From positions 11,791 to 75,790 of the IMG/VR virus record IMGVR_UViG_3300009514_000017: a stretch of DNA of 64,000 nucleotides; one strand, given 5' to 3'. The notes below the pieces were generated by a model. The model did not search any database. It had not been told where the DNA came from and saw nothing but the letters and a program-made list of their open reading frames with translations. The position numbers and the translations under genes were made by a program. Shown here piece after piece: positions 18,101-56,846 of this stretch (position 1 is the first letter of the stretch; every line of letters begins with the position of its first letter). This DNA is from a virus.

Positions 18101-19317
18101 TCAGTGGGGAGATCATAGTAGACAACGCTTCGTTCGGCATCGCTCCTGCTCTGATGCTCAACAACAGGATATTCCTGTCGAGCGCTGGTCTGATCTTCAT
18201 AGGTGATGGTGTGTTCAGGGCCATGAGATATGGTCTTGCGACCGTTGCAGCTACAGGAGATAGCAAGTTCACAGTGTCCGAGGGAGGGATTCTAAACCCC
18301 AGAGCGACTGAGGACTTTGAGGCTCCACTGGTTCGTGCTGGAGATACAGTCTGGATCAGGAATGGGATGGCAGGTGGTAAGTACACTGTTGATTCTGGAA
18401 TCACCGACACAGAGATCCCTGTCAGTGATGGTCCGTCTGTTGGGTTTGCTCAAGAGTCCGGTCTTGGATACGTCGTTCTTAGAGCAGTAAATCCAGAACT
18501 AGTTACTGGAGTAACCGCTGATATCTCTACTGGTGTAGATGAGATCTCCATCTCCGGAGGGCAACTCAGGGTTCATGGAGTTGGTCCAGGAGATTGGCTG
18601 ATCGTTGACTCTGCCTCTGTTGGTGCCAGGAGATTTACCATCCTGGATGTCATCAACTCCGGTAGCTCTTGGGACACAGTCAAAGTCACGCCAACACCAA
18701 CCGGTACCGCTACCCCAGCTGCTAGGATCTGGCGACCATCTCTTATGACCAAGGTAGAGGAGACGTTCCAGATTACTGGGAGTGGTGGTACTATCTACAC
18801 TCCGGATGATACATGGTGGATCGGTCTCGCAGATCCTGGAGACGAAATAGAATTGGATGATGACACCCAGAGTAGATTCCTGCTTGGTGATCCATTGGAT
18901 GATTACTCTGTCAGCTCGATCCCAGCTGGTGCAGCAGATTATAAACTGGTCAAGAAGAACAGACCTGGAGCATTCGTCTCTCTGGATCACTTGCGATATG
19001 ATCCGATGGAGCAGATTGATATAGACTTGGTTGAAGATCAGACTCTTGCTTCTTGCTCTGTTGGCAGTACAGATGTGACTCTCCAGGAGGAGAGAACCAC
19101 AGCACCACCATCAGGACCAAGTGCAGTGAACCCAGCAACCATGAACGTCAAGGTAGGCGATTATCTGATATTGACTGGTGGTGCAGCTGGAGCCATGAAC
19201 ATAGGCTACGGTAATGGGGTATTTCCTATCGTGGCTTTTGATGCGACCAAGGTTGTGATCAGTCAGGGCCTACCTGACACTGAGTCAGTGGCTTGGGCCA
19301 TAAGACGGAGACTGTAA
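15127..19317 (+). CDS. Baseplate/tail protein with N-terminal PKD/REJ-like Ig domain
   Basis: PVAIV..VLLNGKAS..LTYKWEFV..FTPDIVGEYIFNLVVNDG is a PKD-like signature. Wedge-like PSIDNVRTGLEILLGIP and FLRNITPSY segments. 1396 aa. Confidence 0.65.
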   Translation: MPSVPISGPTPATSTRPVAIVVATPLAATIGSRVLLNGKASTNAAGTTLTYKWEFVQPLPIGSRVAIQGFIEVEDDLSVVAFTPDIVGEYIFNLVVNDGNYDSDPFYQQISVRSVVVPHARGIVPDGKFIWSYLRDVWKEVEGRDLFETLWSTLIQIVGSEVLKLYQADFNKSIRDVQSEVQKRWLSYAPLLELDTDSLSFFLGNVSQGRDGITEPYPFQLKGIIVNAQEFIPVEGTALPSDVGTDLTITFSLDSGNEADYRILSLNGSKDGFLLAISSFSAPTADESYASKTFYFSDRSTSWAATTAGPYSVGNYIRFVSGDNKGIYRIMTVSGTDITVDKPPPFLSDAGNPSSGPVYNPVEFTLPRVQTSTVTSLAIPYIGRETEFDSFRVGRLLTFGGKDVTAPGGTLREAGQQTYEPSSARVDYRQGVAVAKFTIPDTNQAPSGLFGQDWRLSNTLISTSQNFDELGVNPGDLLTFKVHLVGSDVAVDLKALVVGVRKKKLAFEFTSSNLTPGSAVTENVVRTLVVGFGIDGYSLADDGTDVYEDDALDFKNSYESMLFQTSYHNVLLDQDSTLTINGKGYSFIPFSILRHQTVGVDVDLKSVPMLQEFIKPPQTVTRSGVTYQVHKGVEYALERAPRPYVENSDFTIGDENAYSGKFIFESGSNYVEGEGIDFIELGIKAGDSFEIVTPLSLAADYTISAVVSQDKIKLSLPVPLFPVDPVVEANVVITRRRSGRFMRFVPGLFSVAGPIAPKRLWAEVSFVDNNTVIEGNFGLAVGLKIDDLENVTKDITYRQAVAGLMRAYSNSPSIDNVRTGLEILLGIPFAEHRGIIRSINPDYRRDSYGRVTKGQMIVEDVDSSSDPLGTFRVYVYPLDEESELSGLEVNPVTDLPYVVGDIVEAFATLAVGIGIQDYLTHPLDDTFSAAKRLQQFHSVRVLINDNIYSSGEYDLVSKFLRNITPSYIKYALTVMSDFDEDVQALDALHMNISGEIIVDNASFGIAPALMLNNRIFLSSAGLIFIGDGVFRAMRYGLATVAATGDSKFTVSEGGILNPRATEDFEAPLVRAGDTVWIRNGMAGGKYTVDSGITDTEIPVSDGPSVGFAQESGLGYVVLRAVNPELVTGVTADISTGVDEISISGGQLRVHGVGPGDWLIVDSASVGARRFTILDVINSGSSWDTVKVTPTPTGTATPAARIWRPSLMTKVEETFQITGSGGTIYTPDDTWWIGLADPGDEIELDDDTQSRFLLGDPLDDYSVSSIPAGAADYKLVKKNRPGAFVSLDHLRYDPMEQIDIDLVEDQTLASCSVGSTDVTLQEERTTAPPSGPSAVNPATMNVKVGDYLILTGGAAGAMNIGYGNGVFPIVAFDATKVVISQGLPDTESVAWAIRRRL

Positions 19318-19991: not shown

Positions 19992-22900
19992 ATGCCAAAT
20001 ATGAAGTACTACAGACGTCCTCAGCTTGTACAAGCCAACCGTCCGCTGCTGACCTACGCGACGGTTAGAGGCTCTGTCTTCCGGTCTGACCCTGATGGCT
20101 CTCACACAGAACCATGGTTCAACGTCTCTGCTTCACAGACGTTTATCGTTACAACTCAGGATGGTGCATCAACAACTACTCTGACTGGTGCCCCTGAGTT
20201 CAACACCATCATCACTGAGATCAACGCTCAGATGGCCACGGATGTTGTTAACGCCGTGGCCTTCAATGCAGATGGCTATCTCGCCATCAAGTCCACAGCA
20301 AAGGGTGCCAACGGATATATAACGATAGGTGCAGGCACTGCCAATACTGCCCTCGGTCTTACCAATGGAGACAAGTCATACGGGGCTGAAGTTCCTTACT
20401 CTCCTCCGGGAACAAACGCAGAGGATTGGGGAACCTTCTTCCCTGGACATGGAGAGAACCTAGACTCATCCGTGTTCAACAGAGGGATGTCGGCCATTGC
20501 AGGAAACGTAGACGTCCTGCATTCGGTCATCTCTCGTCAGGCCCCAACTTTAGAAACGGTTATGACTGGGGTAGATAGTGGTGACACTACTGCTATCGGT
20601 GGTGGAACTGGAGATTACGTTCGCTTGGCAGTTGCTCCGGCCGGCACCAGAGTATGGGTTGGTTTTGGAGATCTGACTGCAACTTCTGGGGAGGCCACGC
20701 TGGAGAAGTTCTTCCGGCTCATCGATCTAGATACCAACACGATGTCGCAGTACAGAGTCGTCGCTGTGGTCAGGAACCCAGCGACGACTCTGGGTGATCC
20801 TCCATCCGGTCACGGCGGGAACTACGCCGACGCAACGACCTGGGCCAACGATGGGAACGTTCTCGGTGTTCGTCTAACCAAGTCGTCTGCCGAAACGATC
20901 ACTGGTATCTCTGGTGGTGACACCATCACCTGTTCTGGGGCCACATTCTCTACCAATGGAGTTGTTGCTGGCGATGTAGCAATAATTGCCAACGCAGACA
21001 ATTTGGATGAAGGAGACAACAACGGCGAGCGCTGGATCATCACTAGCGTGGTTTCTGAAACAGTCATCAAGGTCCGCGCCATGTCAAAGGCGGAGTTGGA
21101 CTACTTCTCCGTCACGAGCAACGAAGTACAGCCAGTTCTGGAGCTTACAGCGCAGAAGACGGGCGGGGAAGTTTACGGTGACGTTACTGTAAAGACCGGC
21201 GTCTTCATGGATGGGTTGGAGCTGATTGTCACTCCAGCTATTCCAGTGGGAACCAATCTTGGCCTCCAGATTCCAACTGATTCCCAGACGCTTGAGTCAC
21301 TAGATCTAAACGCTCCACTGCTAGGCACCACGTCACTGACTGAAGCCTACGGTCCAAATGTTACCCCACTACCTGATGGGTTGATCAAGGCGCCAGAAGG
21401 GTCGTTGGCTGGAGACTTGACGTTCACTGCCGGAACCATGAGGTGGAGAGGGAAGGTAGTTACCATCCCGACTGCCACATTTGCACCCGCAGATCTAACA
21501 GCATCTCAGACCAACTATCTGTATGTGGACGGTGATGAGGGGATCATCAAATTCACTACCACAGTCTCTGATCTTTCAGCTTGGACTGACAACGACCCCA
21601 GTAGCTGGACCGCCGCTAGCAAACCGCTGCTCCTTGGTGTTGCAATCGTCGATGGAGCCCCGGCCATCACGTCATACACGAACGGACAGAGAGTCCTCGC
21701 GGAAGACTCGGTCAACGTCACTGTTGGTTACGGTGGACAGTTCGCAACTCTCGAGGATGCTGCTGTCTACATCAACGCCTTGTCCAGTGCTTCGTCTGAG
21801 ACTTCACCGGCGGCAGATGGAAGCTATCCGCATTTCAACGTTGAGATCGTCAGTGACATCTCCATCGGCGCAGACATCACGTTCTCGGCACCTGGACTAA
21901 AGCTGTATGGAAGGAACCCAAATACTGTCGTCGAGTGGGGAAACGACTACGCCATTACCTATACTGGTGGTGGAACTCTGGTCATCGAAGATTTGAATCT
22001 GACGACTGCGTCCGGAGGAGCAGTCGTCGCTAAGATGTTCTACATCGACAGTAATGATTCTCGAGTTGTCGTTGACAATGTCATACAGACTCACGCTGGA
22101 ACCAATTACGTCTCCAACTTCATCAACACTTCTGCAACCGACGGAATTTCAGAGTTCCGAGCGTTGAACAGTACGTTCAACGTTGTTGGTTCAGTGTGTC
22201 GTGGTGATGGAGCAGGTGGGGTTGGAACAGGTCCTGGTAAGGTCTTGTTCTACGGATGTAATGTTACAACCACAGATGCAGGGAACAACCAATTTCGACT
22301 CGTCTGGCCAACTGGTGGAACTTGGGGAACCGCGACGAGTACGTTTACCGTTCGAGATTGCGTGTTGGACATAAGTACGAATGACACTACCGGCTACATG
22401 ATTGTCTCATTGGTTGCCGGTGGTGCAGTCGTAGTTGATGGTTGTGTAATTACTATAGCAGCGACTCTTCCAGAATCTGGAGCAGCCGCAAGAACTACAC
22501 ACCTCATCGACATGAACAACGTTGCAGGCGCATCTCTTGTCTTCACCAACACATCTGTTGGGACCATGCCAAAGGCCATTGAGGCTGGGGCCACAGATCT
22601 AGTAAAGGTTGATAATTGTATATTCTCAGTCAGGGCTCATGGAAACACAGCAGTTGCATTCCTTGAGGATGTAACCCAGGTCTCGAATTGCTTCTTTGAG
22701 ATTGTAAACTCAGGAGACGTAGGCAGAGTTGCACCAACCACTGCAATCAAGCTGGATACAGGCGGCAACGCGAGCGGTAACTTCATCTCAGGCACAGGCA
22801 ATGGGATAGAGATGGGTGCTCGCAGTTCTGCGGATTCCAACTTCATTGAAATCAGTGCTGGTGCCAACTCTCTTCCGACGTCTGCCATCTTGATGAACAG

Positions 22901-24518
22901 TTCGTCCATGGTGACTGGGAACTGGATTCAGAACACTCTTGGCAGCCCAAACAACGGGGTCATCGAGTGTTTGACTCAGACCGGTGGAACTATCGCGAAC
23001 AACATCATCGATAACACTGGTGGCTCAGCTACGTCGTCTGCCATCTACTTGTCAGCTTCCAGCCGTATTAATGTGACTGGCAACTACATTGTATGTCCCG
23101 GAACTACATGGACTGGTATAGAGCTCATCAACGGAGATGAGATCACAATCACAGGTAACACGATCTACTCCACGAGTGAGTGTATCCTCGTAGATGTCTC
23201 GTCTGCCAATGTGACTATCTCTGATAATAGACTAGATTCATCGGTTCTTTACGGTGTCAACCTGGACCAGTGTACTAAGGTAGCCGTTTCCAACAATGTT
23301 GTCACCGCAGCTGGACATGGCCTCTATCTCAATGTTGCCCTTGATGTATCACTGACTGGAAACAATGTTGTTGTTGGCGCTGGTGACAGTGCTGTGTACC
23401 TCAATGGTGCCTGTATCGATGTTATCGTAAACGATAACTACCTAGAGGGAACTGACACCGCAGGTGTTGAAGTTAGTGCTACGTCTCAGAACATCATCGT
23501 CTCAAACAACAGGATAGACACAGCAGGTGGTGATGGCATCAACTGCGCTGGTGACGATTACGTTCTGAATGGAAATCGAATCGTTACGACTACTGGACAC
23601 GGTGTTGATATCTCTGGTGATAGAGGTACCGTTGTTGGAAACAAAATCACAACGACGACAGGCACTGGGGTGCAGGTTGGCGGAACCAATGTAGGTGCAA
23701 CCATCGGTAATAATCACATCGTCACGTCTTCTGGTCAGGCTATTCAGTACGATGGTGATGATGGTTCCATTGCGAACAACAACATCACCAACTCGTCAAA
23801 CGTCACTGGCGGGGTGATTGAGCTTAGTGGTGCCAACCATGTAGCTATCACTGGTAACGTTCTAAGCTTGTCAACTAACAGCTACGGAATATTTCTGACG
23901 GGGACTACTTCCTATGTCAACATCTCTGGAAACAAAATTGAGAACGTGACGGTAGGAGGTGATGGAATCGTGCTTGGTACAGGAGCTGGATGCACTGACA
24001 TTACTGTATCTAACAACACAGTAATTGTCGCAGAGGCAAAGGCTTTTATTCTGACATCGGCTCATAGAATAAACGTCTCAGGCAATTTCTTTGAGAACAC
24101 TGGAGATGGTGGAACGAACAAGCACGTTGTTCATATTGAAGGTACTAGTGGAACCAAGCCGCAGGATTTCTTGTTTACAGGGAATACTGTAAAGCTTGGT
24201 GATTCAACTAATGATGATGACAATCTTCCGATGGAGATTCTCTACGCTTTGAATGCGATAGTTGCCAACAATATGCTCATTCGAGACTCTGGGAATGGGG
24301 CTGGACGTATATTTATCCGAGTTGGAGCCACCGGTGGTGATGCGGCGGACTCAGCGCATGGAGTTCTTGTTTCACACAATCTCTTCTCGGGTGGTACAGG
24401 TGGTGTGGTAGATAACGTTAACTCTGTTGGGACTGGTAGGACTAGAACACATCGTCCAGTCACTCCTGTTGAAGAAGGAGGGGCAGGGACCTTCAGTACC
24501 GGCCAAGCGTTCGAGTAG
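19992..24518 (+). CDS. Tail fibre/tailspike with long right-handed parallel beta-helix (pectin-lyase-like; possible depolymerase)
   Basis: GGQFATLEDAA entry motif followed by many I[TS]GN/V[TS]NN/GIEL repeats. 1508 aa; last gene of the structural operon. Confidence 0.8.
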   Translation: MPNMKYYRRPQLVQANRPLLTYATVRGSVFRSDPDGSHTEPWFNVSASQTFIVTTQDGASTTTLTGAPEFNTIITEINAQMATDVVNAVAFNADGYLAIKSTAKGANGYITIGAGTANTALGLTNGDKSYGAEVPYSPPGTNAEDWGTFFPGHGENLDSSVFNRGMSAIAGNVDVLHSVISRQAPTLETVMTGVDSGDTTAIGGGTGDYVRLAVAPAGTRVWVGFGDLTATSGEATLEKFFRLIDLDTNTMSQYRVVAVVRNPATTLGDPPSGHGGNYADATTWANDGNVLGVRLTKSSAETITGISGGDTITCSGATFSTNGVVAGDVAIIANADNLDEGDNNGERWIITSVVSETVIKVRAMSKAELDYFSVTSNEVQPVLELTAQKTGGEVYGDVTVKTGVFMDGLELIVTPAIPVGTNLGLQIPTDSQTLESLDLNAPLLGTTSLTEAYGPNVTPLPDGLIKAPEGSLAGDLTFTAGTMRWRGKVVTIPTATFAPADLTASQTNYLYVDGDEGIIKFTTTVSDLSAWTDNDPSSWTAASKPLLLGVAIVDGAPAITSYTNGQRVLAEDSVNVTVGYGGQFATLEDAAVYINALSSASSETSPAADGSYPHFNVEIVSDISIGADITFSAPGLKLYGRNPNTVVEWGNDYAITYTGGGTLVIEDLNLTTASGGAVVAKMFYIDSNDSRVVVDNVIQTHAGTNYVSNFINTSATDGISEFRALNSTFNVVGSVCRGDGAGGVGTGPGKVLFYGCNVTTTDAGNNQFRLVWPTGGTWGTATSTFTVRDCVLDISTNDTTGYMIVSLVAGGAVVVDGCVITIAATLPESGAAARTTHLIDMNNVAGASLVFTNTSVGTMPKAIEAGATDLVKVDNCIFSVRAHGNTAVAFLEDVTQVSNCFFEIVNSGDVGRVAPTTAIKLDTGGNASGNFISGTGNGIEMGARSSADSNFIEISAGANSLPTSAILMNSSSMVTGNWIQNTLGSPNNGVIECLTQTGGTIANNIIDNTGGSATSSAIYLSASSRINVTGNYIVCPGTTWTGIELINGDEITITGNTIYSTSECILVDVSSANVTISDNRLDSSVLYGVNLDQCTKVAVSNNVVTAAGHGLYLNVALDVSLTGNNVVVGAGDSAVYLNGACIDVIVNDNYLEGTDTAGVEVSATSQNIIVSNNRIDTAGGDGINCAGDDYVLNGNRIVTTTGHGVDISGDRGTVVGNKITTTTGTGVQVGGTNVGATIGNNHIVTSSGQAIQYDGDDGSIANNNITNSSNVTGGVIELSGANHVAITGNVLSLSTNSYGIFLTGTTSYVNISGNKIENVTVGGDGIVLGTGAGCTDITVSNNTVIVAEAKAFILTSAHRINVSGNFFENTGDGGTNKHVVHIEGTSGTKPQDFLFTGNTVKLGDSTNDDDNLPMEILYALNAIVANNMLIRDSGNGAGRIFIRVGATGGDAADSAHGVLVSHNLFSGGTGGVVDNVNSVGTGRTRTHRPVTPVEEGGAGTFSTGQAFE

Positions 24519-47891: not shown

Positions 47892-47966
47892 CAGCATCGT
47901 CCAGGCTCGAAAACCCAAGGCGCTGGGTAGAGCCTCTCTTCACCGAGCGCGTCTTAGGTGAGGTAC

Positions 47967-50900
47967 ATGGCACGCATATCCCCGACTGAGGTCTTTGATG
48001 GCCTCAAGAAAAACACAGTCGAGTCCATCAAGTCCTACTTCCCGTTTGAAGAGGGAGGTAAGAGGCTTGAGGTCGAAGACGTTTGGGTCGATGACAAACT
48101 GGACGTCAACGATATTCAATCACAACAGAAGGCCAAGCTCGATGACAAGACCTGGGGTGTAAAGGTCAAAGCCAAGATGAAGCTCACCGATATCAAGACC
48201 GGCAAGGTCTTGGATCGAGCTACGTCCAGTGTGGCCACTCTGCCGAAGATGACGAATCGCTTCGGCTACATCGTTGGTGGAAACGAGTATCAGGTAGACA
48301 ATCTCTTCAGATTGAAGAGCGGTGTCTACACCCGAATCCAGAACAACGGCGAGTTGGAGTCTGAATTCAACTTGGCCAAGAGCCCTGTGGGTGGTCGCGG
48401 GTTCTCGGTCCACTTCGATCCAGAACGCAAGAAATTCTCGCTTCTCTACAAGACAGCCAAGATTCCACTCCTCCCAATCCTCAAGAGCATGGGGATGGCA
48501 GACGATGACATCAAGAAGAACTGGGGCAAGGAGATCTACGAGGCGAACTCCCCCAAGTCTCAGAAGGCTTATGACCAAGCACTGTTGGATTTCCAGACCA
48601 AGACCAGTGGAGATGCCACGTTCAAAGGGTCGAAAGATCCTAAGGAGTACATCAAGGAGTTCTTTCATCAGTCTGAGTTGCGACCAGACACGACCTCCAT
48701 CACTCTAGGAAAGCCATTCGATAGAGTGAGCCACGAGGTTCTATCGATTGCAGCCAACAAGGTTCTCGGTGTGTCTCGAGGAACCAACGAGCCTGACGAC
48801 CGTGACAGTCTGGCGTTCAAGGAAATCACCTCCACCGAGGACTTCATTCCAGAGAAGATCGAGAGGTCTGCTAGGGCTATCCGGGGCAAGCTTCGTCAGA
48901 CTATGGGGAGGAAAGACAAGATCAAGGAGATTATCCCTTCCGGTGAAAGAGGTCTGTTTGGTCAGCCAGTACATGACTTCTTTACCAAGGGCGGGTCTGT
49001 TGCTGAGTTGTCTGACCAGACCAACCCATTGCAGATCTTGTCTGCACATCGCAAGACTACCTTGATGTCAGAGCAGTTCGGCGGCATGAAGTCCGAACAC
49101 TCTCTCACCCCAGAGATGAAGGTGGTCAACCCTAGCCACATAGGGTTCCTTGACGTGATGAAGACTCCCGAAAGCAGTCGCTCGGGTATCACCGTCAATC
49201 TATCGCTACAGGCACAGAAGAGAGGTAAGGAGCTCGAGGCTCCTGTCTTTGATCTGAAGTCAAAGAAGTTGAAGTACGTCTCAGCCCACGAGTTTCATGG
49301 ACGCAATTCTGTATTGCCAGACCAAGTCAAATGGGTTGATGGCAAGCCGGTGCCTATAGCCAGCCGTGTCAAGATGAAGGTCGTTGGCGGGGCGATAGAA
49401 GAGCGTCCGTGGACCGACGCAGATTCTGTAATGCCAACTGCCAAGGGCATGTTTGACTTCACCTCGAACATGATTCCTTTCTTGCCGTCAGACCAGGGCA
49501 ACCGTGTGTCGATGGCAGATAAGCAGATGGAGCAGGCTATTAGCCTGAAGCATCGAGAAGCTCCACTCGTTCAGACCAAGACCGAGAAGGAAAAGACGTT
49601 CGACAAGGTGTTGGGAAACTTTGCCTCTCAGAGATCACCCGTTGCCGGGAAAGTAACCGCAGTTAGAGGTAATCAGGTTACGGTCAAGGACGCGAAGAAC
49701 AAGAGTCATAATGTCCACTTGTACGATCACTTCCCTACCAATGACCCAAAGGGAATGTTCCATTCCGAATCGTCTGTGAAGGTCGGAGACCATGTCTCAA
49801 AAGGCGATACTCTGGCGGATACCAACTTCACAAAGGGTGGAAACCTAGCACTTGGAACCAACCTCCGAGTTGGTTACGTGCCATTCAAGGGCTACAACTT
49901 CGAAGACGGTGTCGTCGTATCTGAGACGGCATCTAAGAAGTTGACCTCCGAACATCTGTACAAAGAGTCACTATCTGTGTCCCCAAACGATGGGGATCGT
50001 ATTGACAAGAATAGATTTGTTGCGGTGGCCAAGCGCAAGATCGCTCAGATGCAGCCAGGAGAGCTGGACGCCATTGGTAGTGATGGTGTGGTCCGCGTTG
50101 GTTCACATGTTCAACCAGGTCAGGTGTTGGTTACTGCGGTTGGTAAAAGCAACCTGGACAAGAGAGATCATGCTCTAGGTTCATTCGGTCGTAGAGCCAT
50201 GTCATTGGAGAAGGACAAGTCTCTGGTTTGGAACCACTCCAGTCCTGGAAAGGTGGTTCGTGTAGTCAAGAGCCCTAATGGTAAAGAGATAAAGGTTCAC
50301 GTCAAGACTGAGGAACCTTTGGTCGTCGGCGATAAGGTGGCCGGACGCCACGGTAACAAGGGCATCGTCACTAAGATTCTTCCCGATGACGAGATGCCAT
50401 TTACTGTTGATTCTAAGACCAAGGAGAAGAGGCCCATACACGTCCTTCTCAACCCGACCGGCGTGCCTTGCTACGACGATAAGACTGAATTCTTGACCGA
50501 CACTGGATGGGTTCAAGCTCCCAAGATCCATGAAGAGCATCGGTTCGCTACGATCAACCCGAAAACTCTAACTCTTGAATTCCAAGATCCAGAGGAGGTT
50601 TACCACATACCTTACACGGGTAAGATGTACAGGATTCAGAACCAGCAGCTTGACCTACTAGTTACTCCTCACCACAAGCAGTTCACTGCCAAGAGAGGGA
50701 ACCAGAAGCTGTATGGAGCGTTGGATTTAGATGACCAGGAGCTTCCGTCTCTGTTTTCATTGGATGAAGCACAGGAAATCATAGGCCAACCAAGGCGGTA
50801 TCTAAAGGCTGCTAAGTGGAAAGGTGATAGCGCGGCTTTCTACTATATAGAGCCTGGAACTTACGCTGGAGTAGGGCCTAAGCCTACTCATGGAATGAAC

Positions 50901-53900
50901 ATCCCAGCATCTATCTGGGCTGAGTTCATGGGATGGTTCTTGTCTGAAGGAAGCACGTACTTCAACAAGGCTAACTACAGCTACGTTACAGAGATTTCCC
51001 AAGACAAGAATGTAAATCCAGAAAACTATGATCGCATTCGTACGGTCATGGAATTCTTTGGGCTTACGTTGGAGGAGACGGACTCTGGTATTCGCGTTAA
51101 GCACAAGGGCTTATTTGAACGACTGGCTTTGTTGGGTAAGGCTCGAGAGAAGTATATTCCTAGAGAGATCTTGGACATGGAGCCACGGCATTTAAGGCTA
51201 TTCCTAGATGCTGCTGTACGAGGTGATGGATCTGAGACTTGGGATGCAGAGACGGGTCACTACGGTAACAAGAAGTATTGGACTGCTTCTAAAAGGTTGG
51301 CTGATGGGATTCAGGAAGTAGCTGCCAAGCTTGGAATTGCAGCCAATATAAAGCGTGAGAGTCGTAGAGGTGATGACGCTTGCTACTACATTTCTTTGAG
51401 TGGGAGTCGTTTAGCGCCATGGGTAAATTGGTCATCAACGACTAAGTCTAACCAGGTTGAAGAGTGGGAGGACTACGACGGAGTAGTTCACTGCGCTACA
51501 GTTCCGAACGGAACTCTCTTGGTTCGTAGGAATGGAAAGGCAGTCTTCAGCGGGAATACAAGAATCAACGTTGGTCAGGTTCTAGAGACAGCAGCAGGGA
51601 AGATTGCTGAGAAGACTGGTAAGCCTTTCATAGTCGACAACTTTGGTGACCCCAAGTCCAACAATCGCAAGATGGTAGCGGATGCTCTTAAGGCACACGG
51701 GCTCACTGATGAAGAAGATGTCTACGACCCGAGCAATGTGAAGAAGCCAATCGGTTCCGTCCTGGTTGGTCCACAGCACATACTCAAGTTGCAGCACCAG
51801 GTTGAAAAGAAGCTTACCTCCCGTGGTGGTTCAACTACTGCTGGTGGAGCTGGACTCAAGTTCGACAGTGACAGGCAGCCACAGAAGGGTGGGGAGCACG
51901 GGTCTCAGGGATTTGGTCAGCTGGAACTCTACTCGTTGCTTGCACATGGGGCCAAGCACAACATCCGTGAGTTTGCCACGTACAAGTCCGACGAACAGAA
52001 TGAGCAGTTCTGGGCGCAACTACAGTCCGGTAGAGAGCCGCCACCTCCAAAGGTGCCATTCGCTTACAACAAGTTTGAAGCTCTCCTAAAGGGGTTGGGT
52101 GTCAATGTAGAGAAGCATGGAACTGAGATTCAACTTCTACCATCAACAGACAGGCAGACTATTGCTGCTGCTGGTGGAGCGTCTGGGGAATTGAAGAAAG
52201 CCAACTTGACGTTGCAGTCAAAGACCCTCAGGGAAGAAAAGGGTGGTCTGTTCGACAAGATGGTGACAGGCGGCAAGGATGGAAACAACTGGAGTTACAT
52301 CAAGCTTACAGACCCAATGCCAAATCCAGTGTTCGTTGGCAGTGGAAACCTACCAGGTCCAATCCCTGCACTCCTAGGCATGAAGATCAAGGATGTCGAA
52401 GACGTGATGAAGGGCAAGACCAAGCTTCATGGGAAAACTGGCGGAGAGGCAATCAAGGAGGCTCTTTCCAAGATCAACGTGACTGCCGAGTTGGCAAAGA
52501 CTAAGGGCAGGCTTCATGGGTTGACGGGATCTGAGTTGGATAGGGCCAATAAGAGGTTCAAGTATCTGTCTGTACTCAAGGACAAGAACCTTCGTCCCGA
52601 AGACGCTTACATGATGTCGGCAGTTCCGGTTCTTCCACCGAAGTTCAGACCGGTTCAGGAGTTGCCAACAGGTGATCTCAGTGTCCACCCACTCAACGGC
52701 ATGTATAAGAACATCGCCATCCTCAACCAGAAGCTGGTGCAAGCAAAGGCGGACAAGAATCTGGATGATGATCGCACGGAGTTGGCTGCTGATCTGTACG
52801 ACAAGATGAAAGCGTTGCAGTCCGTTGGTGGTTCTTCTGCTTTCGATCTGGATTCCCCAAACAGCAAGCGTAAGTTGAAGGGAATCATGGAGACCATTGC
52901 TGGAACCAATGCTCCAAAGGAAGGCTACTTCCAGGACAGGTTGGTAAAGAAGCGTTTGGGTATGTCGATGAGATCTACCATCACTCCAGAGCCACGATTG
53001 AGCCTGGATGAGGTTGGCATTCCTAGAAACGCTGCCATGGAGATGTACAAGACTTACGTTCAGGCAGAACTAGTGAAGCATGGTATCTCGAGGCCAAGAG
53101 CTGACTTGATGATTCGTCAGAATGATCCTGTTGCTCATAAAGCTCTAGAGACAGTGATTGGTGATAGACCTGTAATCTTGAAGAGAGACCCAGCCCTACA
53201 CAAGTTCAGTGTAATGGGATTCAAGCCAAAGATCGTTGAGGGAAAATCTATTCAGATCCACCCTCTCGTGACCGGCGGTTTCAACGCGGACTTTGACGGC
53301 GATCAACAGCTTGGATCAGTACTTGTGAACGTTTCAGAGGAGATATACAACTCCGACTTGGACTTTTGGAAGCCAAGGCGGTGCAAGGTGAGTGCAAGGT
53401 TTGAAGAGGTAGTTGGGTTTGAGTTCAACGGTTATTTCGCAGTGTGTAACTTGGAGGACTTTCCCCGTAGTGAGCTAGTGGGAACCAAGGACCACATTGA
53501 ATTTTGGACTGTTCCAGAAGGGGTCAAGGTAGCAGCTGTAGATGAAGCTTCTGGCAAGGTGACGCTGACTAAGGTGTCCCATTGGTCTCTTCATCTTGCG
53601 CGCAAGATTGAGATCGTCAATCTGGGAAGTGGGCGTCAGATTATTACTGACGACGATGAGCGCGCTGTCTACGGGCTCGATGCTTCTTCACTCGAGTGGT
53701 GCCGCCGTCGACCCAAGGACGCAAAGCTTCAGTTCGTGCCAGTGGTTGATGAGTCACCTCGTCTAGAGTCTTTCCTATCTGAGGTCCCTCTTCCCAGCAG
53801 TCCAAGGCTCAAGGCGACAGCTACCCTAGACGAGTCCTTCGGTTACTTCATGGGGGCTATGGTTGGAGATGGGTGGGCCTCTTTTGCTGAAGGCACTCCA

Positions 53901-56846
53901 AGGGCTATCAATATTGCGTCTAGCTACGGAGATGTAGATACAGCTTGGAAGTCCTCGCTTCTATCCATCTTCAAGGACGCTCCAACAGTTACGAGATCTG
54001 AAGCTACTGAGGGCAAGTTGGGTAACTCCACTGGCTCTACTCGTTTTACAGTCAGCTGTGTTGCTGCGGCTAAGTTCATTGCAAAAACCTTAGGACGGTC
54101 AGCGCAGAAGAAGCATCTCCCAACCTTTGCTACGGCGGCTCCGAAGAGTTTCATCCTTGGACTCCTAGGTGGGCTTTGGGATACCGATGGTTCGATGTCT
54201 TGGTCAAAAGCTAAGGCTAAGAAACAGTTCATGTGCTCGTATTCATCTACAAGCATTCGACTTGTCCAAGAGATTCAGTATCTCCTAAGGATGTTGGGGG
54301 TCTCTGCATCTATTACCCCAACAGAAACTCCAGCAGGTGGACCAGCTTGGGTGTTGACGGTGTCAACTGTCGACCTTTACCGAATAGGTGGGTTTCCAGT
54401 TCACCATTCGGATAAGAAGGCACATCAGACTGAGTTCTTGAACGGTGCCAAGCCAGATGATCGGATGGCGTACAGCCGTTACCGTCTGGTTCCTACCCCT
54501 TCCGCTCTAGCCTCAGAGATGAGGTCTGTCATTGGCTCAAAAGAAGATCGAAGCTTGTACATCACGCTCTCAAAGGCCATTGAGCGTCAGTACATGTCGA
54601 AGAACATGGCGGAGAAGCTTCTCGATATCGACTGCTCGCATCCTCTGTTCAACAAGTGGAAGTCTATAGTTCAGATGCCTGGGGTTCACTTCGAGAGAGT
54701 TGATAGCGTTGAGGTCACGAATATTAGAGAGGATGGGTACGACCTAACGGTTCCTGATCATGAGACTTTCATGTCCATCGACGGAATTGTTCTCTCCAAC
54801 ACGATGGCTGCAACCATTCCAATGACTCAGGAGGCGGTAGCCGAAGCACGGAAGATGTTCCCATCGAAACACCTTTTCTCCTCCACGAACTTTGGTGTGA
54901 TGCACACCCCAGGTCAGGAAGCCATCATCGGCTTGAACCTTATGACACGTTGGGGAAAGAAAACTAATAAGAAATTCAGGGACATAGCCTCTGCAAAGAA
55001 GGCTTATAAAGGTGGGTCTATAGAGCTGACCGACGTCATCGAGCTGACTGGGTCCAAGGGTCCAACCACTGTTGGCAGGTTGATGATTGCTGAGAAGATG
55101 CCTCATGGTTTCTCTGGCAACCACGGCATCATGCACGACTCCAAGTTCGAGTTCACCAAGAAGTCCATCAAGCAAACGGCTACCAAGATTGCCAATGAGA
55201 AGCGTGGTCAGTTCGCCAATGCGATGGACAACTTGAAAGACCTAGGAAATGAGTTCTCGTACTCTCAGGGGTTCTCGTTTGGGCTGAAAGATCTGGAGAC
55301 TCTACCAAGGAGGGATTCCATCCTTGCAGCGGCAGACAAGAAGGCGGCGGTCGTCAGGAAGACAGTCAAAGATCACAAGAAGCAGGAGTTGATGCTGGCC
55401 AAGATCTATGAGGACGCCACCAATCAGATGGAGAAACACGCCGTCGAACACTTCGTCAAGGGTGGAAGAAAGAACCGATTGATGTCCATGGTGTACTCCG
55501 GCTCTCGTGGTTCGGAGTCACAGCTAAGGCAGATGATCGCGGCTCCTATGATGATGATCGACCACAGTGGAAAGGTGATCACCAACCCAGCAAGGAAGAG
55601 TTATTCCGAAGGTCTGGATATCGGTGACTATTGGAAGACCCAGCACGGAGCCAGGAAGGGGACGTTGGATAGGGCAGTAGGAACTCAGGAGCCCGGGGCG
55701 CTTACCAAGGACATCCTCAACTCAACTATGAACATCCATGTAGTCTCCAAGGACTGCATGACTACACAAGGTGTTCATATGGCTCTAGAGTCTAGTGACG
55801 GCAGTACACCTCCAGACATCTTCGACCGATACACCTCTGTTCCGTACACATTGAAGTCAGGAAAGAAGGTTCCAGCAGGCTCAGTCATCACTCCGGCGCT
55901 GGTCGATCAGTTGAAGGAATCCAAGATCAACAAGATCTTGTGCAGGTCGCCACTGAAGTGCCAGCACGGAAAAGGAATCTGCTCGAAGTGCTTTGGTTTG
56001 AACGAGAACGGGGAGCTACATTCTGTTGGAACCAACATCGGTGTGCTGGCTGGTCAGGCATTGGGTGAGCCTGTTACTCAGATGGCGATGGATGCCTTCC
56101 ATTCGGGTGGTGTTGCTGGAGCAGCAGGTGCTCAAAAGGTTGACAAGTTCACCAGACTGAAGCAGCTCTTGAACGTGCATCAGACGTTGAAGGACTCAGC
56201 CACCCTGGCTCGAGTGTCTGGAACTATTACGTCCGTCAAGAAGGATGCAGCAGGTGGTCTAGATATTTTCATTGGTAAGGAGCGCCATTACGTTCCAGCC
56301 AAGCTAGTGAATGATGGCATCAAGGTTGGAACCAAGATTATCAGAGGTCAGTCACTTTCCCACCCGTCATCTCCAGTCAACCCACACCACCTACTTGGCG
56401 TGACTGGAGATATGAGTAGAGTCCAGAACTACATCACTGAAGAGTTGGCTGAGGGACCTTACAAGGGGAGGCTGCGTCGTCGTAACGTTGAGGTAGCAGT
56501 TCGTGGCCTGACGAATGTGGCTACAGTGACTGGCAGTGGAACCAACAGCCCTTGGCAACCTGGTGATAAGGTTCCGCTGTCGGTTATTGAGATGCACAAC
56601 AGGAAGTTGAAGAAGAAGGACAAGCCTGTGGAGTTCTCTCCACAGTTGGTTGGCTCTCAGCAGGTTCCTCTCACCTCTACGGATTGGATGGCTCGCTTGA
56701 ACTATCAGAGGTTGCCATCAACAATCATGCAGGCGGCATCGCAGGGATGGAAGTCTGATATTCACGGCCAGCATCCGATCCCTGGCATAGTGTACGGTGC
56801 AGAGTTTGGTAAACCACCCAAGGGCAAGCTGCCGGGGTCGTACTGA
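47967..56846 (+). CDS. rpoBC: Fused beta-beta' DNA-directed RNA polymerase precursor with two inteins
   Basis: Beta motifs: DQTNPL, GYNFEDG, GDKVAGRHGNKG, NPTGVP/TRINVGQ, GFGQLE. Beta' motifs: PVLPP, KRDPALH, NADFDGD, GARKG, CQHGKGICSKCFG, GEPVTQ. All in one frame. ATG 47967 preferred over GTG 47958. Confidence 0.95.
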   Translation: MARISPTEVFDGLKKNTVESIKSYFPFEEGGKRLEVEDVWVDDKLDVNDIQSQQKAKLDDKTWGVKVKAKMKLTDIKTGKVLDRATSSVATLPKMTNRFGYIVGGNEYQVDNLFRLKSGVYTRIQNNGELESEFNLAKSPVGGRGFSVHFDPERKKFSLLYKTAKIPLLPILKSMGMADDDIKKNWGKEIYEANSPKSQKAYDQALLDFQTKTSGDATFKGSKDPKEYIKEFFHQSELRPDTTSITLGKPFDRVSHEVLSIAANKVLGVSRGTNEPDDRDSLAFKEITSTEDFIPEKIERSARAIRGKLRQTMGRKDKIKEIIPSGERGLFGQPVHDFFTKGGSVAELSDQTNPLQILSAHRKTTLMSEQFGGMKSEHSLTPEMKVVNPSHIGFLDVMKTPESSRSGITVNLSLQAQKRGKELEAPVFDLKSKKLKYVSAHEFHGRNSVLPDQVKWVDGKPVPIASRVKMKVVGGAIEERPWTDADSVMPTAKGMFDFTSNMIPFLPSDQGNRVSMADKQMEQAISLKHREAPLVQTKTEKEKTFDKVLGNFASQRSPVAGKVTAVRGNQVTVKDAKNKSHNVHLYDHFPTNDPKGMFHSESSVKVGDHVSKGDTLADTNFTKGGNLALGTNLRVGYVPFKGYNFEDGVVVSETASKKLTSEHLYKESLSVSPNDGDRIDKNRFVAVAKRKIAQMQPGELDAIGSDGVVRVGSHVQPGQVLVTAVGKSNLDKRDHALGSFGRRAMSLEKDKSLVWNHSSPGKVVRVVKSPNGKEIKVHVKTEEPLVVGDKVAGRHGNKGIVTKILPDDEMPFTVDSKTKEKRPIHVLLNPTGVPCYDDKTEFLTDTGWVQAPKIHEEHRFATINPKTLTLEFQDPEEVYHIPYTGKMYRIQNQQLDLLVTPHHKQFTAKRGNQKLYGALDLDDQELPSLFSLDEAQEIIGQPRRYLKAAKWKGDSAAFYYIEPGTYAGVGPKPTHGMNIPASIWAEFMGWFLSEGSTYFNKANYSYVTEISQDKNVNPENYDRIRTVMEFFGLTLEETDSGIRVKHKGLFERLALLGKAREKYIPREILDMEPRHLRLFLDAAVRGDGSETWDAETGHYGNKKYWTASKRLADGIQEVAAKLGIAANIKRESRRGDDACYYISLSGSRLAPWVNWSSTTKSNQVEEWEDYDGVVHCATVPNGTLLVRRNGKAVFSGNTRINVGQVLETAAGKIAEKTGKPFIVDNFGDPKSNNRKMVADALKAHGLTDEEDVYDPSNVKKPIGSVLVGPQHILKLQHQVEKKLTSRGGSTTAGGAGLKFDSDRQPQKGGEHGSQGFGQLELYSLLAHGAKHNIREFATYKSDEQNEQFWAQLQSGREPPPPKVPFAYNKFEALLKGLGVNVEKHGTEIQLLPSTDRQTIAAAGGASGELKKANLTLQSKTLREEKGGLFDKMVTGGKDGNNWSYIKLTDPMPNPVFVGSGNLPGPIPALLGMKIKDVEDVMKGKTKLHGKTGGEAIKEALSKINVTAELAKTKGRLHGLTGSELDRANKRFKYLSVLKDKNLRPEDAYMMSAVPVLPPKFRPVQELPTGDLSVHPLNGMYKNIAILNQKLVQAKADKNLDDDRTELAADLYDKMKALQSVGGSSAFDLDSPNSKRKLKGIMETIAGTNAPKEGYFQDRLVKKRLGMSMRSTITPEPRLSLDEVGIPRNAAMEMYKTYVQAELVKHGISRPRADLMIRQNDPVAHKALETVIGDRPVILKRDPALHKFSVMGFKPKIVEGKSIQIHPLVTGGFNADFDGDQQLGSVLVNVSEEIYNSDLDFWKPRRCKVSARFEEVVGFEFNGYFAVCNLEDFPRSELVGTKDHIEFWTVPEGVKVAAVDEASGKVTLTKVSHWSLHLARKIEIVNLGSGRQIITDDDERAVYGLDASSLEWCRRRPKDAKLQFVPVVDESPRLESFLSEVPLPSSPRLKATATLDESFGYFMGAMVGDGWASFAEGTPRAINIASSYGDVDTAWKSSLLSIFKDAPTVTRSEATEGKLGNSTGSTRFTVSCVAAAKFIAKTLGRSAQKKHLPTFATAAPKSFILGLLGGLWDTDGSMSWSKAKAKKQFMCSYSSTSIRLVQEIQYLLRMLGVSASITPTETPAGGPAWVLTVSTVDLYRIGGFPVHHSDKKAHQTEFLNGAKPDDRMAYSRYRLVPTPSALASEMRSVIGSKEDRSLYITLSKAIERQYMSKNMAEKLLDIDCSHPLFNKWKSIVQMPGVHFERVDSVEVTNIREDGYDLTVPDHETFMSIDGIVLSNTMAATIPMTQEAVAEARKMFPSKHLFSSTNFGVMHTPGQEAIIGLNLMTRWGKKTNKKFRDIASAKKAYKGGSIELTDVIELTGSKGPTTVGRLMIAEKMPHGFSGNHGIMHDSKFEFTKKSIKQTATKIANEKRGQFANAMDNLKDLGNEFSYSQGFSFGLKDLETLPRRDSILAAADKKAAVVRKTVKDHKKQELMLAKIYEDATNQMEKHAVEHFVKGGRKNRLMSMVYSGSRGSESQLRQMIAAPMMMIDHSGKVITNPARKSYSEGLDIGDYWKTQHGARKGTLDRAVGTQEPGALTKDILNSTMNIHVVSKDCMTTQGVHMALESSDGSTPPDIFDRYTSVPYTLKSGKKVPAGSVITPALVDQLKESKINKILCRSPLKCQHGKGICSKCFGLNENGELHSVGTNIGVLAGQALGEPVTQMAMDAFHSGGVAGAAGAQKVDKFTRLKQLLNVHQTLKDSATLARVSGTITSVKKDAAGGLDIFIGKERHYVPAKLVNDGIKVGTKIIRGQSLSHPSSPVNPHHLLGVTGDMSRVQNYITEELAEGPYKGRLRRRNVEVAVRGLTNVATVTGSGTNSPWQPGDKVPLSVIEMHNRKLKKKDKPVEFSPQLVGSQQVPLTSTDWMARLNYQRLPSTIMQAASQGWKSDIHGQHPIPGIVYGAEFGKPPKGKLPGSY
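50469..51557 (+). mobile_element. Intein 1 (363 aa, class 1, LAGLIDADG homing endonuclease) in the beta region
   Basis: GVP|CYDDKTEFLT..VTPHH..FMGWFLSEGS..AVRGDGS..VHCATVPNG..FSGN|TRINVGQ. Removal restores the conserved NPxGVPSRMNxGQ motif. Confidence 0.9.
53304..54800 (+). mobile_element. Intein 2 (499 aa, atypical Gln1, LAGLIDADG) directly after catalytic NADFDGD
   Basis: NADFDGD|QQLG..FMGAMVGDG..LWDTDGS..GYDLTVPDHETF..IVLSN|TMAATIP. Removal restores a NADFDGD-xMA-like active-site loop. Confidence 0.85.

What the first reader, a model, noticed from the sequence alone, without database searches (positions are those of the whole stretch)
53283..54803. Gln-starting intein at the RNAP catalytic aspartate that fits none of the known splicing classes
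The downstream extein TMAATIPMTQEAVAEAR aligns without gaps to E. coli QMAVHVPLTLEAQLEAR, so the insert begins at Gln right after the third catalytic Asp. It lacks a Cys/Ser1 nucleophile (class 1), the block-B His (ITDDDERAVY in place of TxxH), the penultimate His (ends S-N), the block-F Cys of class 3 (GYDLTV has Asp), and the Ala1/Cys+1 pair of class 2 (here Thr+1). It keeps blocks F/G and both LAGLIDADG motifs, and the polymerase presumably cannot work unspliced. Inference: an undescribed splicing route, such as direct Thr+1 attack or activation through the -1 Asp, or conditional splicing gating RNAP activation.
Basis: partly seen in the sequence, partly recalled or inferred. Interest (0 to 1): 0.85.

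Follow-up and report, generated by a model that had tools for sequence, protein, structure and literature searches.

The report
Nucleophile-less intein in phage RNA polymerase
A self-removing protein insert (intein) sits right after the magnesium-binding DFDGD loop of a large phage's single-chain RNA polymerase. It belongs to a big, conserved, apparently undescribed family that lacks the first-residue nucleophile and all the histidines that studied inteins use, so it probably splices by a route not yet described.

Summary
A 499-aa insert (nt 53304-54800) lies exactly between the third catalytic Asp of NADFDGD and a Thr in a 2962-aa fused beta-beta' RNA polymerase of an uncultured phage. A 54%-identical homologue lacks exactly these residues and reads DFDGD|TMAATIP. 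The insert is modelled with confidence as a HINT domain plus a LAGLIDADG endonuclease, with Gln1 in the place of the usual Cys1/Ser1.

It is one of at least 115 diverged metagenomic members, all at this site and all ending (L)SN|T. Residue 1 is unconstrained: 14 residue types, at least 61 changes on the tree. His97, Asp116, Asp118, Asp480, Asn499 and Thr+1 never change.

A sister family at the same site keeps Ser/Cys/Thr at residue 1 and ends in Asp. The nucleophile loss is therefore a real, derived, single-clade trait. It travels with a D-D-D-(P/E)-R block B, Glu for the block-F His, and a penultimate Ser, as in class 2 KlbA inteins.

The sequence criteria of classes 1, 2 and 3 all fail. My best mechanism, which is inferred and not shown, is direct attack by Thr+1 helped by His97 and Asp480.

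"Gln1" itself is incidental. I found no paper describing the family. This scan had already noted the same family on other genomes.

The parts
47958..56846 (+). Host gene: single-chain (fused beta-beta') multisubunit-type RNA polymerase, 2962 aa including two inteins and about 2100 aa without them
   Evidence: ORF list and translation. Pfam Rpb2_6 at 4e-47, plus Rpb1 domains 1-5. Collinear with the intein-less L010 at 54.3% identity.
53283..53303 (+). N-extein end: catalytic NADFDGD loop; Asp-1 codon GAT at 53301-53303
   Evidence: D-x-D-G-D precedes all 116 aligned inteins.
53304..54800 (+). Intein 2: 499 aa, Gln1 to Asn499
   Evidence: Absent, to the residue, from L010 and L014. AF2 model pLDDT 88, pTM 0.88. 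Best structural matches are TliVMA, PI-PkoII, PI-PfuI and PI-SceI.
53304..53333 (+). Block A strand (Q-Q-L-G-S-V-L-V-N-V); residue 1 sits where Cys1/Ser1 sits in known inteins
   Evidence: In structural alignments, model residue 16 (Gln1) pairs with residue 1 of 4e2t, 5o9i, 2lcj and 1lwt. Family pattern x-Q-[IL]-[GN]-x-V.
53334..53432 (+). Variable loop (residues 11-43) inserted in the first hairpin
   Evidence: Low pLDDT. Length varies by up to about 90 aa in the family.
53583..53594 (+). W94-S95-L96-H97: invariant His97 (NX-type) and Ser/Thr95
   Evidence: H97 is 116/116 and S95 is S108/T8. H97 aligns to the R-H histidine of two archaeal PolB inteins, one of which (the YAD|TDG insert) starts with Ser1.
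53631..53675 (+). His-less acidic block B: G-R-Q-I-I-T-D-D-D-E-R-A-V-Y-G
   Evidence: D116 is 115/116, D118 116/116, R120 115/116, and position 119 is P93/E20. It aligns to T-E-D-H of a PolB intein as D116-D117-D118-E119.
53817..54458 (+). LAGLIDADG homing endonuclease domain; motifs at 53841-53876 and 54159-54191
   Evidence: PF14528 at 1.5e-18 with two stretches. Model residues 187-400 match I-DmoI and I-Tsp061I at Z 16-17. G-D-G-W and D-T-D-G are conserved.
54717..54800 (+). Blocks F and G: invariant Asp480 (F:4), Glu487 in place of the block-F His, Ser498-Asn499 at the end
   Evidence: Weak matches to blocks F/G of the Pho RadA and PI-PkoII inteins.
54801..54803 (+). Thr+1 (ACG), first C-extein residue
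   Evidence: T in 116/116 family members. Intein-less alleles carry T, A or K here.
50469..51557 (+). Intein 1 (363 aa) in the beta part, with ordinary Cys1 and T-P-H-H block B, ending G-N|T; serves as an internal contrast
   Evidence: Absent, to the residue, from L010.

Best explanation
This is a genuine, selection-maintained, mobile intein (HINT splicing domain plus LAGLIDADG homing endonuclease). It interrupts the RNA polymerase immediately after the third Mg-binding Asp.

It belongs to a large, apparently undescribed clade that has lost the residue-1 nucleophile. It also lacks the block-B His, the block-F His and the penultimate His. It therefore cannot begin with the class 1 N-to-O/S acyl shift.

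Most likely route (inferred):
1. Thr+1 attacks the Asp-1 carbonyl directly, as Cys+1 does in class 2 KlbA inteins.
2. The invariant NX-type His97, backed by Asp480 (F:4), acts as general base in a protease-like Thr-His-Asp arrangement.
3. The acidic block B (Asp116/Asp118, with Arg120) strains the scissile amide and protonates the leaving amine.
4. Asn499 then cyclises, helped by Ser498, Glu487 and Thr488.
5. An O-to-N shift gives DFDGD-TMAATIP, as in intein-less alleles.
6. The freed intein homes into empty alleles.
For: Shown here:
- Exact insert borders against two intein-less alleles.
- A confident HINT plus LAGLIDADG model whose first residue pairs with residue 1, and whose Asn499 pairs with the terminal Asn, of solved inteins. 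Examples: TliVMA Z 20.8; PI-PkoII Z 19.8; PabCDC21-1 Z 17.3 at rmsd 2.0 A.
- At least 115 diverged members, all after D-x-D-G-D. H97, D116, D118, D480, N499 and T+1 show zero changes on the tree, while residue 1 changes at least 61 times.
- Members that happen to carry Cys or Ser at residue 1 keep every other family motif.
- Thr+1 is invariant although empty alleles carry T, A or K there. This argues for ligation chemistry rather than mere cleavage.
- A reciprocally monophyletic sister family at the same site (split support 0.999) keeps S/C/T at residue 1 in 48/48. It shares S95, H97, D118 and D480. It lacks D116, D117, R120, E487, S498 and N499.
- The intein is as conserved as the polymerase core and is patchily distributed. 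The closest relative, L014, is empty; P0003 shows intein identity 58% against extein identity 43%.
- H97 aligns to the R-H (NX) histidine of two archaeal PolB inteins; the one inserted at YAD|TDG starts with Ser1.

From the literature:
- The NX His lies about 3 A from Ser1 and 3.3 A from the F:4 Asp, and is essential in Ser1 inteins (PMC10189870).
- Class 2 inteins have Ser at G:6 and use direct +1 attack (PMC4031507).
- The block-B His can be dispensable (PMC10189870, PMC6333167).
Against: - No splicing, intermediate or product has been observed.
- I could not read atomic distances from the model. The placing of His97, Ser95 and Asp116/118 around the scissile bond rests on alignment to known inteins and on the literature.
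- Direct attack of a Thr hydroxyl on an amide is chemically harder than the Cys+1 attack of class 2.
- Ser95, His97 and Asp118 are also invariant in the sister family that keeps a residue-1 nucleophile. They were therefore not acquired to compensate for the loss.
- Asp-1 is invariant for polymerase reasons, so its participation cannot be excluded.
Confidence: 0.55

Rival explanations
1. Class-3-like relay. The invariant internal Ser95, activated by His97, attacks the Asp-1 carbonyl first and forms an internal branched ester. It then hands the N-extein to Thr+1. Asn cyclisation and the acyl shift follow.
For: Position 95 is Ser or Thr in all 116 members, and sits two residues before the invariant His97 on the same strand. 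Class 3 sets a precedent for an internal nucleophile replacing residue 1 (PMC2807308). S95T co-occurs with the only two S498H changes, on separate branches, which suggests Ser95 lies at the catalytic centre near the C-terminal junction.
Against: Ser95 is equally invariant in the sister family, which has its own Ser1/Cys1, so it is not specific to the nucleophile-less state. An O-to-O transfer has no energetic drive, unlike the S-to-O transfer in class 3. F:4, the class 3 nucleophile position, is Asp here. I could obtain no distance data.
Confidence: 0.15
2. Substrate-assisted start. The side chain of the catalytic Asp-1 attacks its own peptide carbonyl and forms a succinic anhydride, releasing the intein's N-terminus. 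Thr+1 then opens the anhydride. The reaction may be tuned by Mg2+ bound between the extein DFDGD and the intein D-D-D cluster, which would gate polymerase activation.
For: Every member of the family, and of its sister family, follows an Asp. The block B next to the junction is unusually acidic. From my own knowledge, not checked here: anhydride formation at Asp-X bonds, and Asp-1-promoted N-cleavage in inteins, are known chemistry.
Against: Asp-1 is fixed by polymerase function and by the homing site, so its invariance carries no information. The sister family has the same Asp-1 yet keeps a residue-1 nucleophile. An anhydride could give a beta-linked junction, which would destroy the Mg ligand. 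No residue-1 preference such as Pro is seen.
Confidence: 0.08
3. No ligation. The insert only cleaves itself out, leaving a two-chain beta', or it stays in the enzyme, or it is a decaying remnant in a dead gene.
For: No splicing data exist. All the usual N-terminal catalytic residues are missing. Split beta' subunits occur in other phages (my own knowledge).
Against: Thr+1 and Asn499 are invariant, whereas empty alleles vary at +1. The 2962-aa frame is intact. The intein is as conserved as the polymerase core across at least 115 lineages, with endonuclease motifs retained. The site lies in the active-site barrel directly after a Mg ligand. Only one beta' gene is present on the 75.8-kb record, which is about 40% of the genome.
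Confidence: 0.12
4. Artefact or RNA-level removal. Either a sequencing or assembly error sits at the first codon, or an intron with an in-frame endonuclease gene is removed from the mRNA.
For: The record is a single metagenomic contig, and no sequencing run could be listed to recheck it.
Against: The same non-nucleophilic start appears in 115 independent sequences. CAA is at least two substitutions away from any Cys or Ser codon. No Rfam intron or any other RNA family reaches significance in 50000-55500. The HINT fold and blocks F/G are conserved at the protein level.
Confidence: 0.01

Closest known systems
Cysteine-less class 1 'oxyester' inteins with the NX-motif His, especially the PI-PkoII / Tko Pol-2 type at the PolB YAD|TDG site (2cw7; PMC10189870)
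   Same: - HINT plus LAGLIDADG architecture; 2cw7 gives Z 19.8 at 19% identity.
- The NX-type His aligns with His97.
- Asp at F:4, Thr+1, and all-oxygen chemistry.
- Insertion directly after a catalytic Mg-binding Asp and before a Thr.
   Different: Those inteins start with Ser1, keep block B T-x-D-H, and end His-Asn. Here residue 1 is free to vary, block B is D-D-D-(P/E)-R, the block-F His is Glu, and the end is Ser-Asn.
Class 2 inteins (Mja KlbA orthologues; PMC4031507)
   Same: No residue-1 nucleophile. Ser at G:6 before the terminal Asn. Asp at F:4. A plausible shared logic of direct attack by the +1 residue.
   Different: KlbA inteins have Ala1 and Cys+1, sit only in archaeal KlbA, and (from memory) keep the block-B His. 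Here +1 is Thr, residue 1 takes 14 different residue types, the host is a phage RNAP, and no sequence relation was detected.
Class 3 inteins (WCT triplet; MP-Be DnaB; PMC2807308)
   Same: Non-nucleophilic residue 1. Thr/Ser at +1. Phage-associated, monophyletic origin.
   Different: The defining Trp (B:12), Cys (F:4) and Thr (G:5) are absent; here they are Ala or Arg, Asp, and Leu. Class 3 keeps the block-B His.
Sister family of Asp-ending inteins at the same DFDGD| site
   Same: Same insertion site, about 30% identity, the same S-x-H motif, D118, D480, T482, P484, T488-F489 and Thr+1.
   Different: Residue 1 is Ser, Cys or Thr in 48/48. Block B is S-x-D-(H/Q/E). The end is (Q/W/F)-Asp rather than Ser-Asn.

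Membership tests
Intein (HINT protein-splicing element) | In-frame insert in a conserved host protein, absent to the residue from homologues | tested here: met
   L010 lacks exactly aa 1783-2281. L014 is also empty.
Intein (HINT protein-splicing element) | HINT fold with N- and C-termini at the canonical positions | tested here: met
   AF2 model pLDDT 88. Foldseek E 4.6e-21 to TliVMA. VIA Z 14-21 to many inteins, with model residues 16 and 514 pairing with residue 1 and the terminal Asn.
Intein (HINT protein-splicing element) | C-terminal Asn followed by a Cys/Ser/Thr +1 nucleophile | tested here: met
   Asn499|Thr+1. N in 115/116 and T in 116/116 of the family.
Intein (HINT protein-splicing element) | Actual protein splicing (excision with ligation) | not testable with these tools
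   Only inferred, from conservation and patchy distribution.
Class 1 inteins | Cys, Ser or Thr at residue 1 | tested here: not met
   Gln1 here. In the family a nucleophile occurs at residue 1 in 7/116, and it is incidental because all other motifs are unchanged.
Class 1 inteins | Block B Thr-x-x-His | tested here: not met
   T-D-D-D-E-R here. There is no His under either register.
Class 2 (KlbA) inteins | Ala1 | tested here: not met
   Gln1 here. Ala occurs in only 13/116.
Class 2 (KlbA) inteins | Cys+1 | tested here: not met
   Thr+1 in 116/116.
Class 2 (KlbA) inteins | Ser at G:6 | tested here: met
   Ser498 in 113/116. Feature as stated in PMC4031507.
Class 2 (KlbA) inteins | Orthologue of the archaeal KlbA intein | tested here: not met
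   The host is a phage RNAP beta'. All relatives sit after D-x-D-G-D.
Class 3 inteins | WCT triplet: Trp B:12, Cys F:4, Thr G:5 | tested here: not met
   B:12 is Arg120 or Ala121 depending on register. F:4 is Asp480 (116/116). G:5 is Leu497. Definition from PMC2807308.
Cysteine-less Ser1 inteins with NX motif | NX-motif His | tested here: met
   His97 is invariant and aligns to the R-H histidine of two PolB inteins. The residue before it is K/R in only about 40% of members.
Cysteine-less Ser1 inteins with NX motif | Ser1 | tested here: not met
   Gln1 here. Ser occurs in 2/116.
LAGLIDADG homing endonuclease | Two LAGLIDADG motifs with acidic residues, and the fold | tested here: met
   PF14528 at 1.5e-18 with two stretches. 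I-DmoI and I-Tsp061I match at Z 16-17. G-D-G-W and D-T-D-G are conserved. Cleavage activity was not tested.
Bacterial intein-like (BIL) domains | No +1 nucleophile | tested here: not met
   Thr+1 is invariant. Definition from PMC4031507.

The most novel reading that the evidence does not exclude
The clade is a fourth mechanistic class of inteins. The reaction is started with the help of the polymerase's own catalytic Asp-1 (anhydride, or a metal ion held between the extein DFDGD and the intein D-D-D cluster), so that splicing chemistry is coupled to Mg2+ or pH and gates activation of the phage RNA polymerase.
Probability: 0.1. Interest if true: 0.95.

Novelty: new variant of a known kind. Interest (0 to 1): 0.75.

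Why it matters
All studied inteins start splicing with one of three things: a residue-1 Cys/Ser (class 1), Cys+1 in the KlbA lineage (class 2), or a block-F Cys (class 3).

A large, conserved family with none of these, and without the three canonical histidines, would give a naturally cysteine-free and histidine-poor splicing chemistry. That would be a new test case for how a HINT fold activates an amide bond. It could also be a redox-insensitive protein-ligation tool that tolerates any first residue.

The paired sister family, at the same site but with Ser1/Cys1, is a ready-made natural comparison for finding which substitutions replace the lost nucleophile.

Biologically, the insert sits in the Mg-binding loop of the phage's only visible RNA polymerase gene. 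Its removal should therefore be obligatory for phage transcription, and it could be a control point.

Tried and rejected
- Profile-profile alignment of the family against the ordinary intein 1 family. The global run aligned only the endonuclease domains. The N-domain run put block A at residues 51-60 (E 0.028, probability 1.7%). I rejected that reading because structural alignments start at Gln1, and because a PolB intein profile alignment matches the N-L-E-D-F stretch to the usual I-x-E-L-F stretch after the first hairpin.
- An N-junction at a downstream Cys (Cys27 or Cys48). Rejected: these positions are not conserved, and the empty alleles fix the border.
- Sequencing runs. None was listed for nt 53100-55000, and no RNA holder was listed, so the reads could not be rechecked.
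- GenBank phages (INPHARED). No member of the family was found by tblastn, only two weak endonuclease matches.
- PDB sequence search. Only weak block F/G matches, E 0.3 or worse.
- Rfam scan of 50000-55500. No intron or other RNA family.
- Literature searches for intein with DFDGD, DxDGD, rpoC, class 4 or missing N-terminal nucleophile. No description of this family was found in the searchable library. Subscription journals are not covered.
- Atomic distances in the AF2 model. Coordinates are not exposed to the script box, so active-site geometry could not be measured.
- Pfam on nine other large ORFs of the window. The only hits were a beta-helix/NosD match on the ORF at 19992-24518 and a below-cutoff PKD-like domain on the ORF at 15127-19317.
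Full report
**What is there**

The window comes from an IMG/VR virus record of 75.8 kb, estimated about 40% complete. ORF 47958..56846 (+) encodes a 2962-aa protein. Pfam places RNA polymerase beta domains (Rpb2_6, 4e-47) in front of beta' domains (Rpb1 domains 1-5), so it is a single-chain beta-beta' polymerase. It also carries LAGLIDADG and partial intein-splicing matches.

Two inserts interrupt the protein:
- aa 838-1200, which reads NPTGVP|C...GN|TRINVGQ;
- aa 1783-2281, which reads NADFDGD|QQLGSV...GIVLSN|TMAATIP.

**Borders**

Eight related viral loci lack the second insert and read DFDGD followed by T, A or K and then M. The best of these, L010, aligns to the whole protein at 54.3% identity over 2078 residues. 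Its only two long gaps are window aa 838-1200 (363 aa) and 1783-2281 (499 aa). A degenerate search for the empty-site DNA found a still closer empty allele, L014, at 57.5% identity and reading DFDGD|TMAATVP.

The insert therefore starts at Gln (CAA, 53304-53306) directly after the third catalytic Asp. It ends Ser-Asn before Thr (ACG, 54801-54803). The junction cannot be moved to a downstream Cys or Ser.

**Fold**

An AlphaFold2 model was built on 51 family sequences (pLDDT 88, pTM 0.88). It shows a HINT splicing domain with a nested LAGLIDADG endonuclease.
- Foldseek's best hits are TliVMA, PI-PfuI, PI-PkoII and PI-SceI, with E down to 4.6e-21.
- VIA-align gives Z 20.8 to 7qsu and 19.8 to 2cw7.
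- It also gives Z 14-17 to many mini-inteins at rmsd 2-3 A. Examples are PabCDC21-1 (6rpp, Z 17.3, rmsd 2.0) and the cysteine-less Aes123 PolB1 intein (9hth, Z 17.3).
- The alignments begin at model residue 16 (Gln1) against residue 1 of 4e2t, 5o9i, 2lcj and 1lwt. They end at Asn499 against the terminal Asn.

Gln1 therefore occupies the place of the usual Cys1/Ser1. Residues 11-43 form a low-confidence loop of variable length inserted in the first hairpin.

**Family**

A full HMMER scan of 1.84 billion representatives gave 760 hits at E<=1e-3 and 208 at E<=1e-30. All are metagenomic. None was found in GenBank phages.

Among the best 150 hits I could delimit 116 complete inteins. One of them, P0140, later proved to belong to a sister family. 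Every one follows D-x-D-G-D of an RNAP beta' homologue, and 115 end Asn|Thr, mostly L-S-N|T.

- Residue 1 is Q47 D14 E14 A13 L8 C5 G3 F3 S2 and others. Its entropy is above the intein's mean. It changed at least 61 times on a 115-tip tree.
- His97, Asp116, Asp118, Asp480, Asn499 and Thr+1 never changed.
- Position 95 is always Ser or Thr.
- The few members with Cys1 or Ser1 keep all other family motifs.
- Block B reads Q-I-x-T-D-D-D-(P/E)-R-A-V-Y-G. The block-F His position is Glu487. The penultimate residue is Ser.

The unusual start is thus a family trait under purifying selection. It is neither an error nor decay. Gln itself is incidental.

**Sister family and polarity**

The most divergent hit, P0140, led to 48 further inteins at the same site. 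They start with Ser (30), Cys (17) or Thr (1), and end (Q/W/F)-Asp|Thr.

In a joint alignment both groups share S95, H97, D118, Y479, D480, T482, P484, T488, F489 and Thr/Ser+1. D116, D117, P/E119, R120, E487, S498 and N499 are specific to the nucleophile-less group. The two groups are reciprocally monophyletic, with split support 0.999 under midpoint rooting. The loss of the residue-1 nucleophile therefore defines one clade and travels with a remodelled block B and C-terminal site.

A profile of both groups aligns, weakly (10 bits), to the Ser1 intein that sits in the YAD|TDG motif of a Thermococcus PolB. His97 pairs with the His of M-R-H, which is the NX motif. D116-D117-D118-E119 pair with T-E-D-H. 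On that register the block-B Thr has become Asp and the block-B His has become Pro, or Glu in this window.

**Comparison with the known classes**

According to PMC4031507 and PMC2807308:
- class 1 needs Cys/Ser/Thr at residue 1: not met;
- class 2 means KlbA orthologues with Ala1, Ser G:6 and Cys+1: only Ser G:6 is met;
- class 3 needs the Trp-Cys-Thr triplet: not met, because F:4 is Asp.

The closest described relatives are cysteine-less Ser1 inteins with the NX His. That His lies about 3 A from Ser1 and 3.3 A from the F:4 Asp, and is essential there. In one of them the block-B His is dispensable (PMC10189870).

**Mechanism (inferred)**

Thr+1 and Asn499 are invariant, while empty alleles carry T, A or K at +1. 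This argues that the element ligates the exteins through the usual branched ester and Asn cyclisation. The first step cannot use residue 1.

I favour direct attack of Thr+1 on the Asp-1 carbonyl, with His97/Asp480 as a base pair and the acidic block B acting on the leaving amine. This is a class-2-like route carried out with oxygen, and the shared Ser G:6 fits it.

Two rivals remain. One is a relay through Ser95. S95T accompanies both independent S498H changes, which hints that Ser95 lies near the C-terminal junction; but Ser95 is equally invariant in the Ser1/Cys1 sister family. The other is substrate assistance by Asp-1, whose invariance is uninformative.

**Mobility and other rivals**

The intein is as conserved as the polymerase core. 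The two identity rankings are only partly concordant: P0003 shows intein 58% against extein 43%, while P0011 shows 46% against 53%. The nearest relatives of the host gene are empty. The endonuclease motifs are kept. Together these fit an active homing element.

No intron-like RNA is detected. Only one beta' gene is present on the record. No sequencing run was listed for a read-level recheck.

**Novelty**

Seven literature searches found no description of this family. Recent reviews still list three classes.

Earlier notes of this same scan describe the same family on other genomes, and the Asp-ending family at the same site. My tests agree with them. They add the direct comparison of the two families, the tree, the block-B register and the Ser G:6 parallel.

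I rate it a new variant of a known kind, of high interest to intein biochemistry. The mechanism remains open.

Noticed in passing
window 50469-51557 (+): A second, ordinary intein (363 aa) lies in the beta part at NPTGVP|TRINVGQ. It has Cys1, block B T-P-H-H and a LAGLIDADG domain, and ends Gly-Asn|Thr with no penultimate His. Homologues occur in many related polymerases.
   Followed up: partly
window 47958-56846 (+): The polymerase is a single-chain beta-beta' fusion of only about 2100 aa once both inteins are removed. Intein-less relatives lie on 177-196 kb viral contigs (L010/L013, L014).
   Followed up: partly
P0100, P0118, P0123, P0125, P0129, P0132, P0137, P0142, P0144 (relatives, not the window): A subgroup of polymerases carrying this intein reads D-F-N-G-D instead of D-F-D-G-D, so the second Asp of the metal triad is encoded as Asn.
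   Followed up: no
P0154-P0203, P0140 (relatives): A sister intein family sits at the identical site. It has Ser/Cys/Thr at residue 1 and a C-terminal Asp ((Q/W/F)-D|T) instead of Asn. One member is deposited in NCBI as a hypothetical protein of a Pseudobutyrivibrio MAG (P0184).
   Followed up: partly
P0044, P0088, P0053, P0008, P0004, P0062 (relatives): Related phage polymerases carry several inteins each, and proteins reach 4739 aa. The phmmer hit tables suggest four or more HINT/LAGLIDADG inserts in some of them.
   Followed up: no
P0209, residues about 1443-1834: The Ser1 PolB intein most similar to this superfamily sits between Asp and Thr of the catalytic YAD|TDG motif. It has the same Asp-1/Thr+1, metal-ligand context as DFDGD|T in the RNAP.
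   Followed up: partly
window 19992-24518 (+): A 1508-aa ORF carries a right-handed beta-helix/NosD region (7e-21), which suggests a tail fibre or depolymerase. The neighbouring large ORFs (775-1633 aa) have no significant Pfam match; one has only a below-cutoff PKD-like domain.
   Followed up: no
family alignment, positions 95 and 498: The only two members with a penultimate His (P0096, P0121) both have Thr instead of Ser at position 95. They lie on separate branches, which hints at coupling between these two positions.
   Followed up: partly
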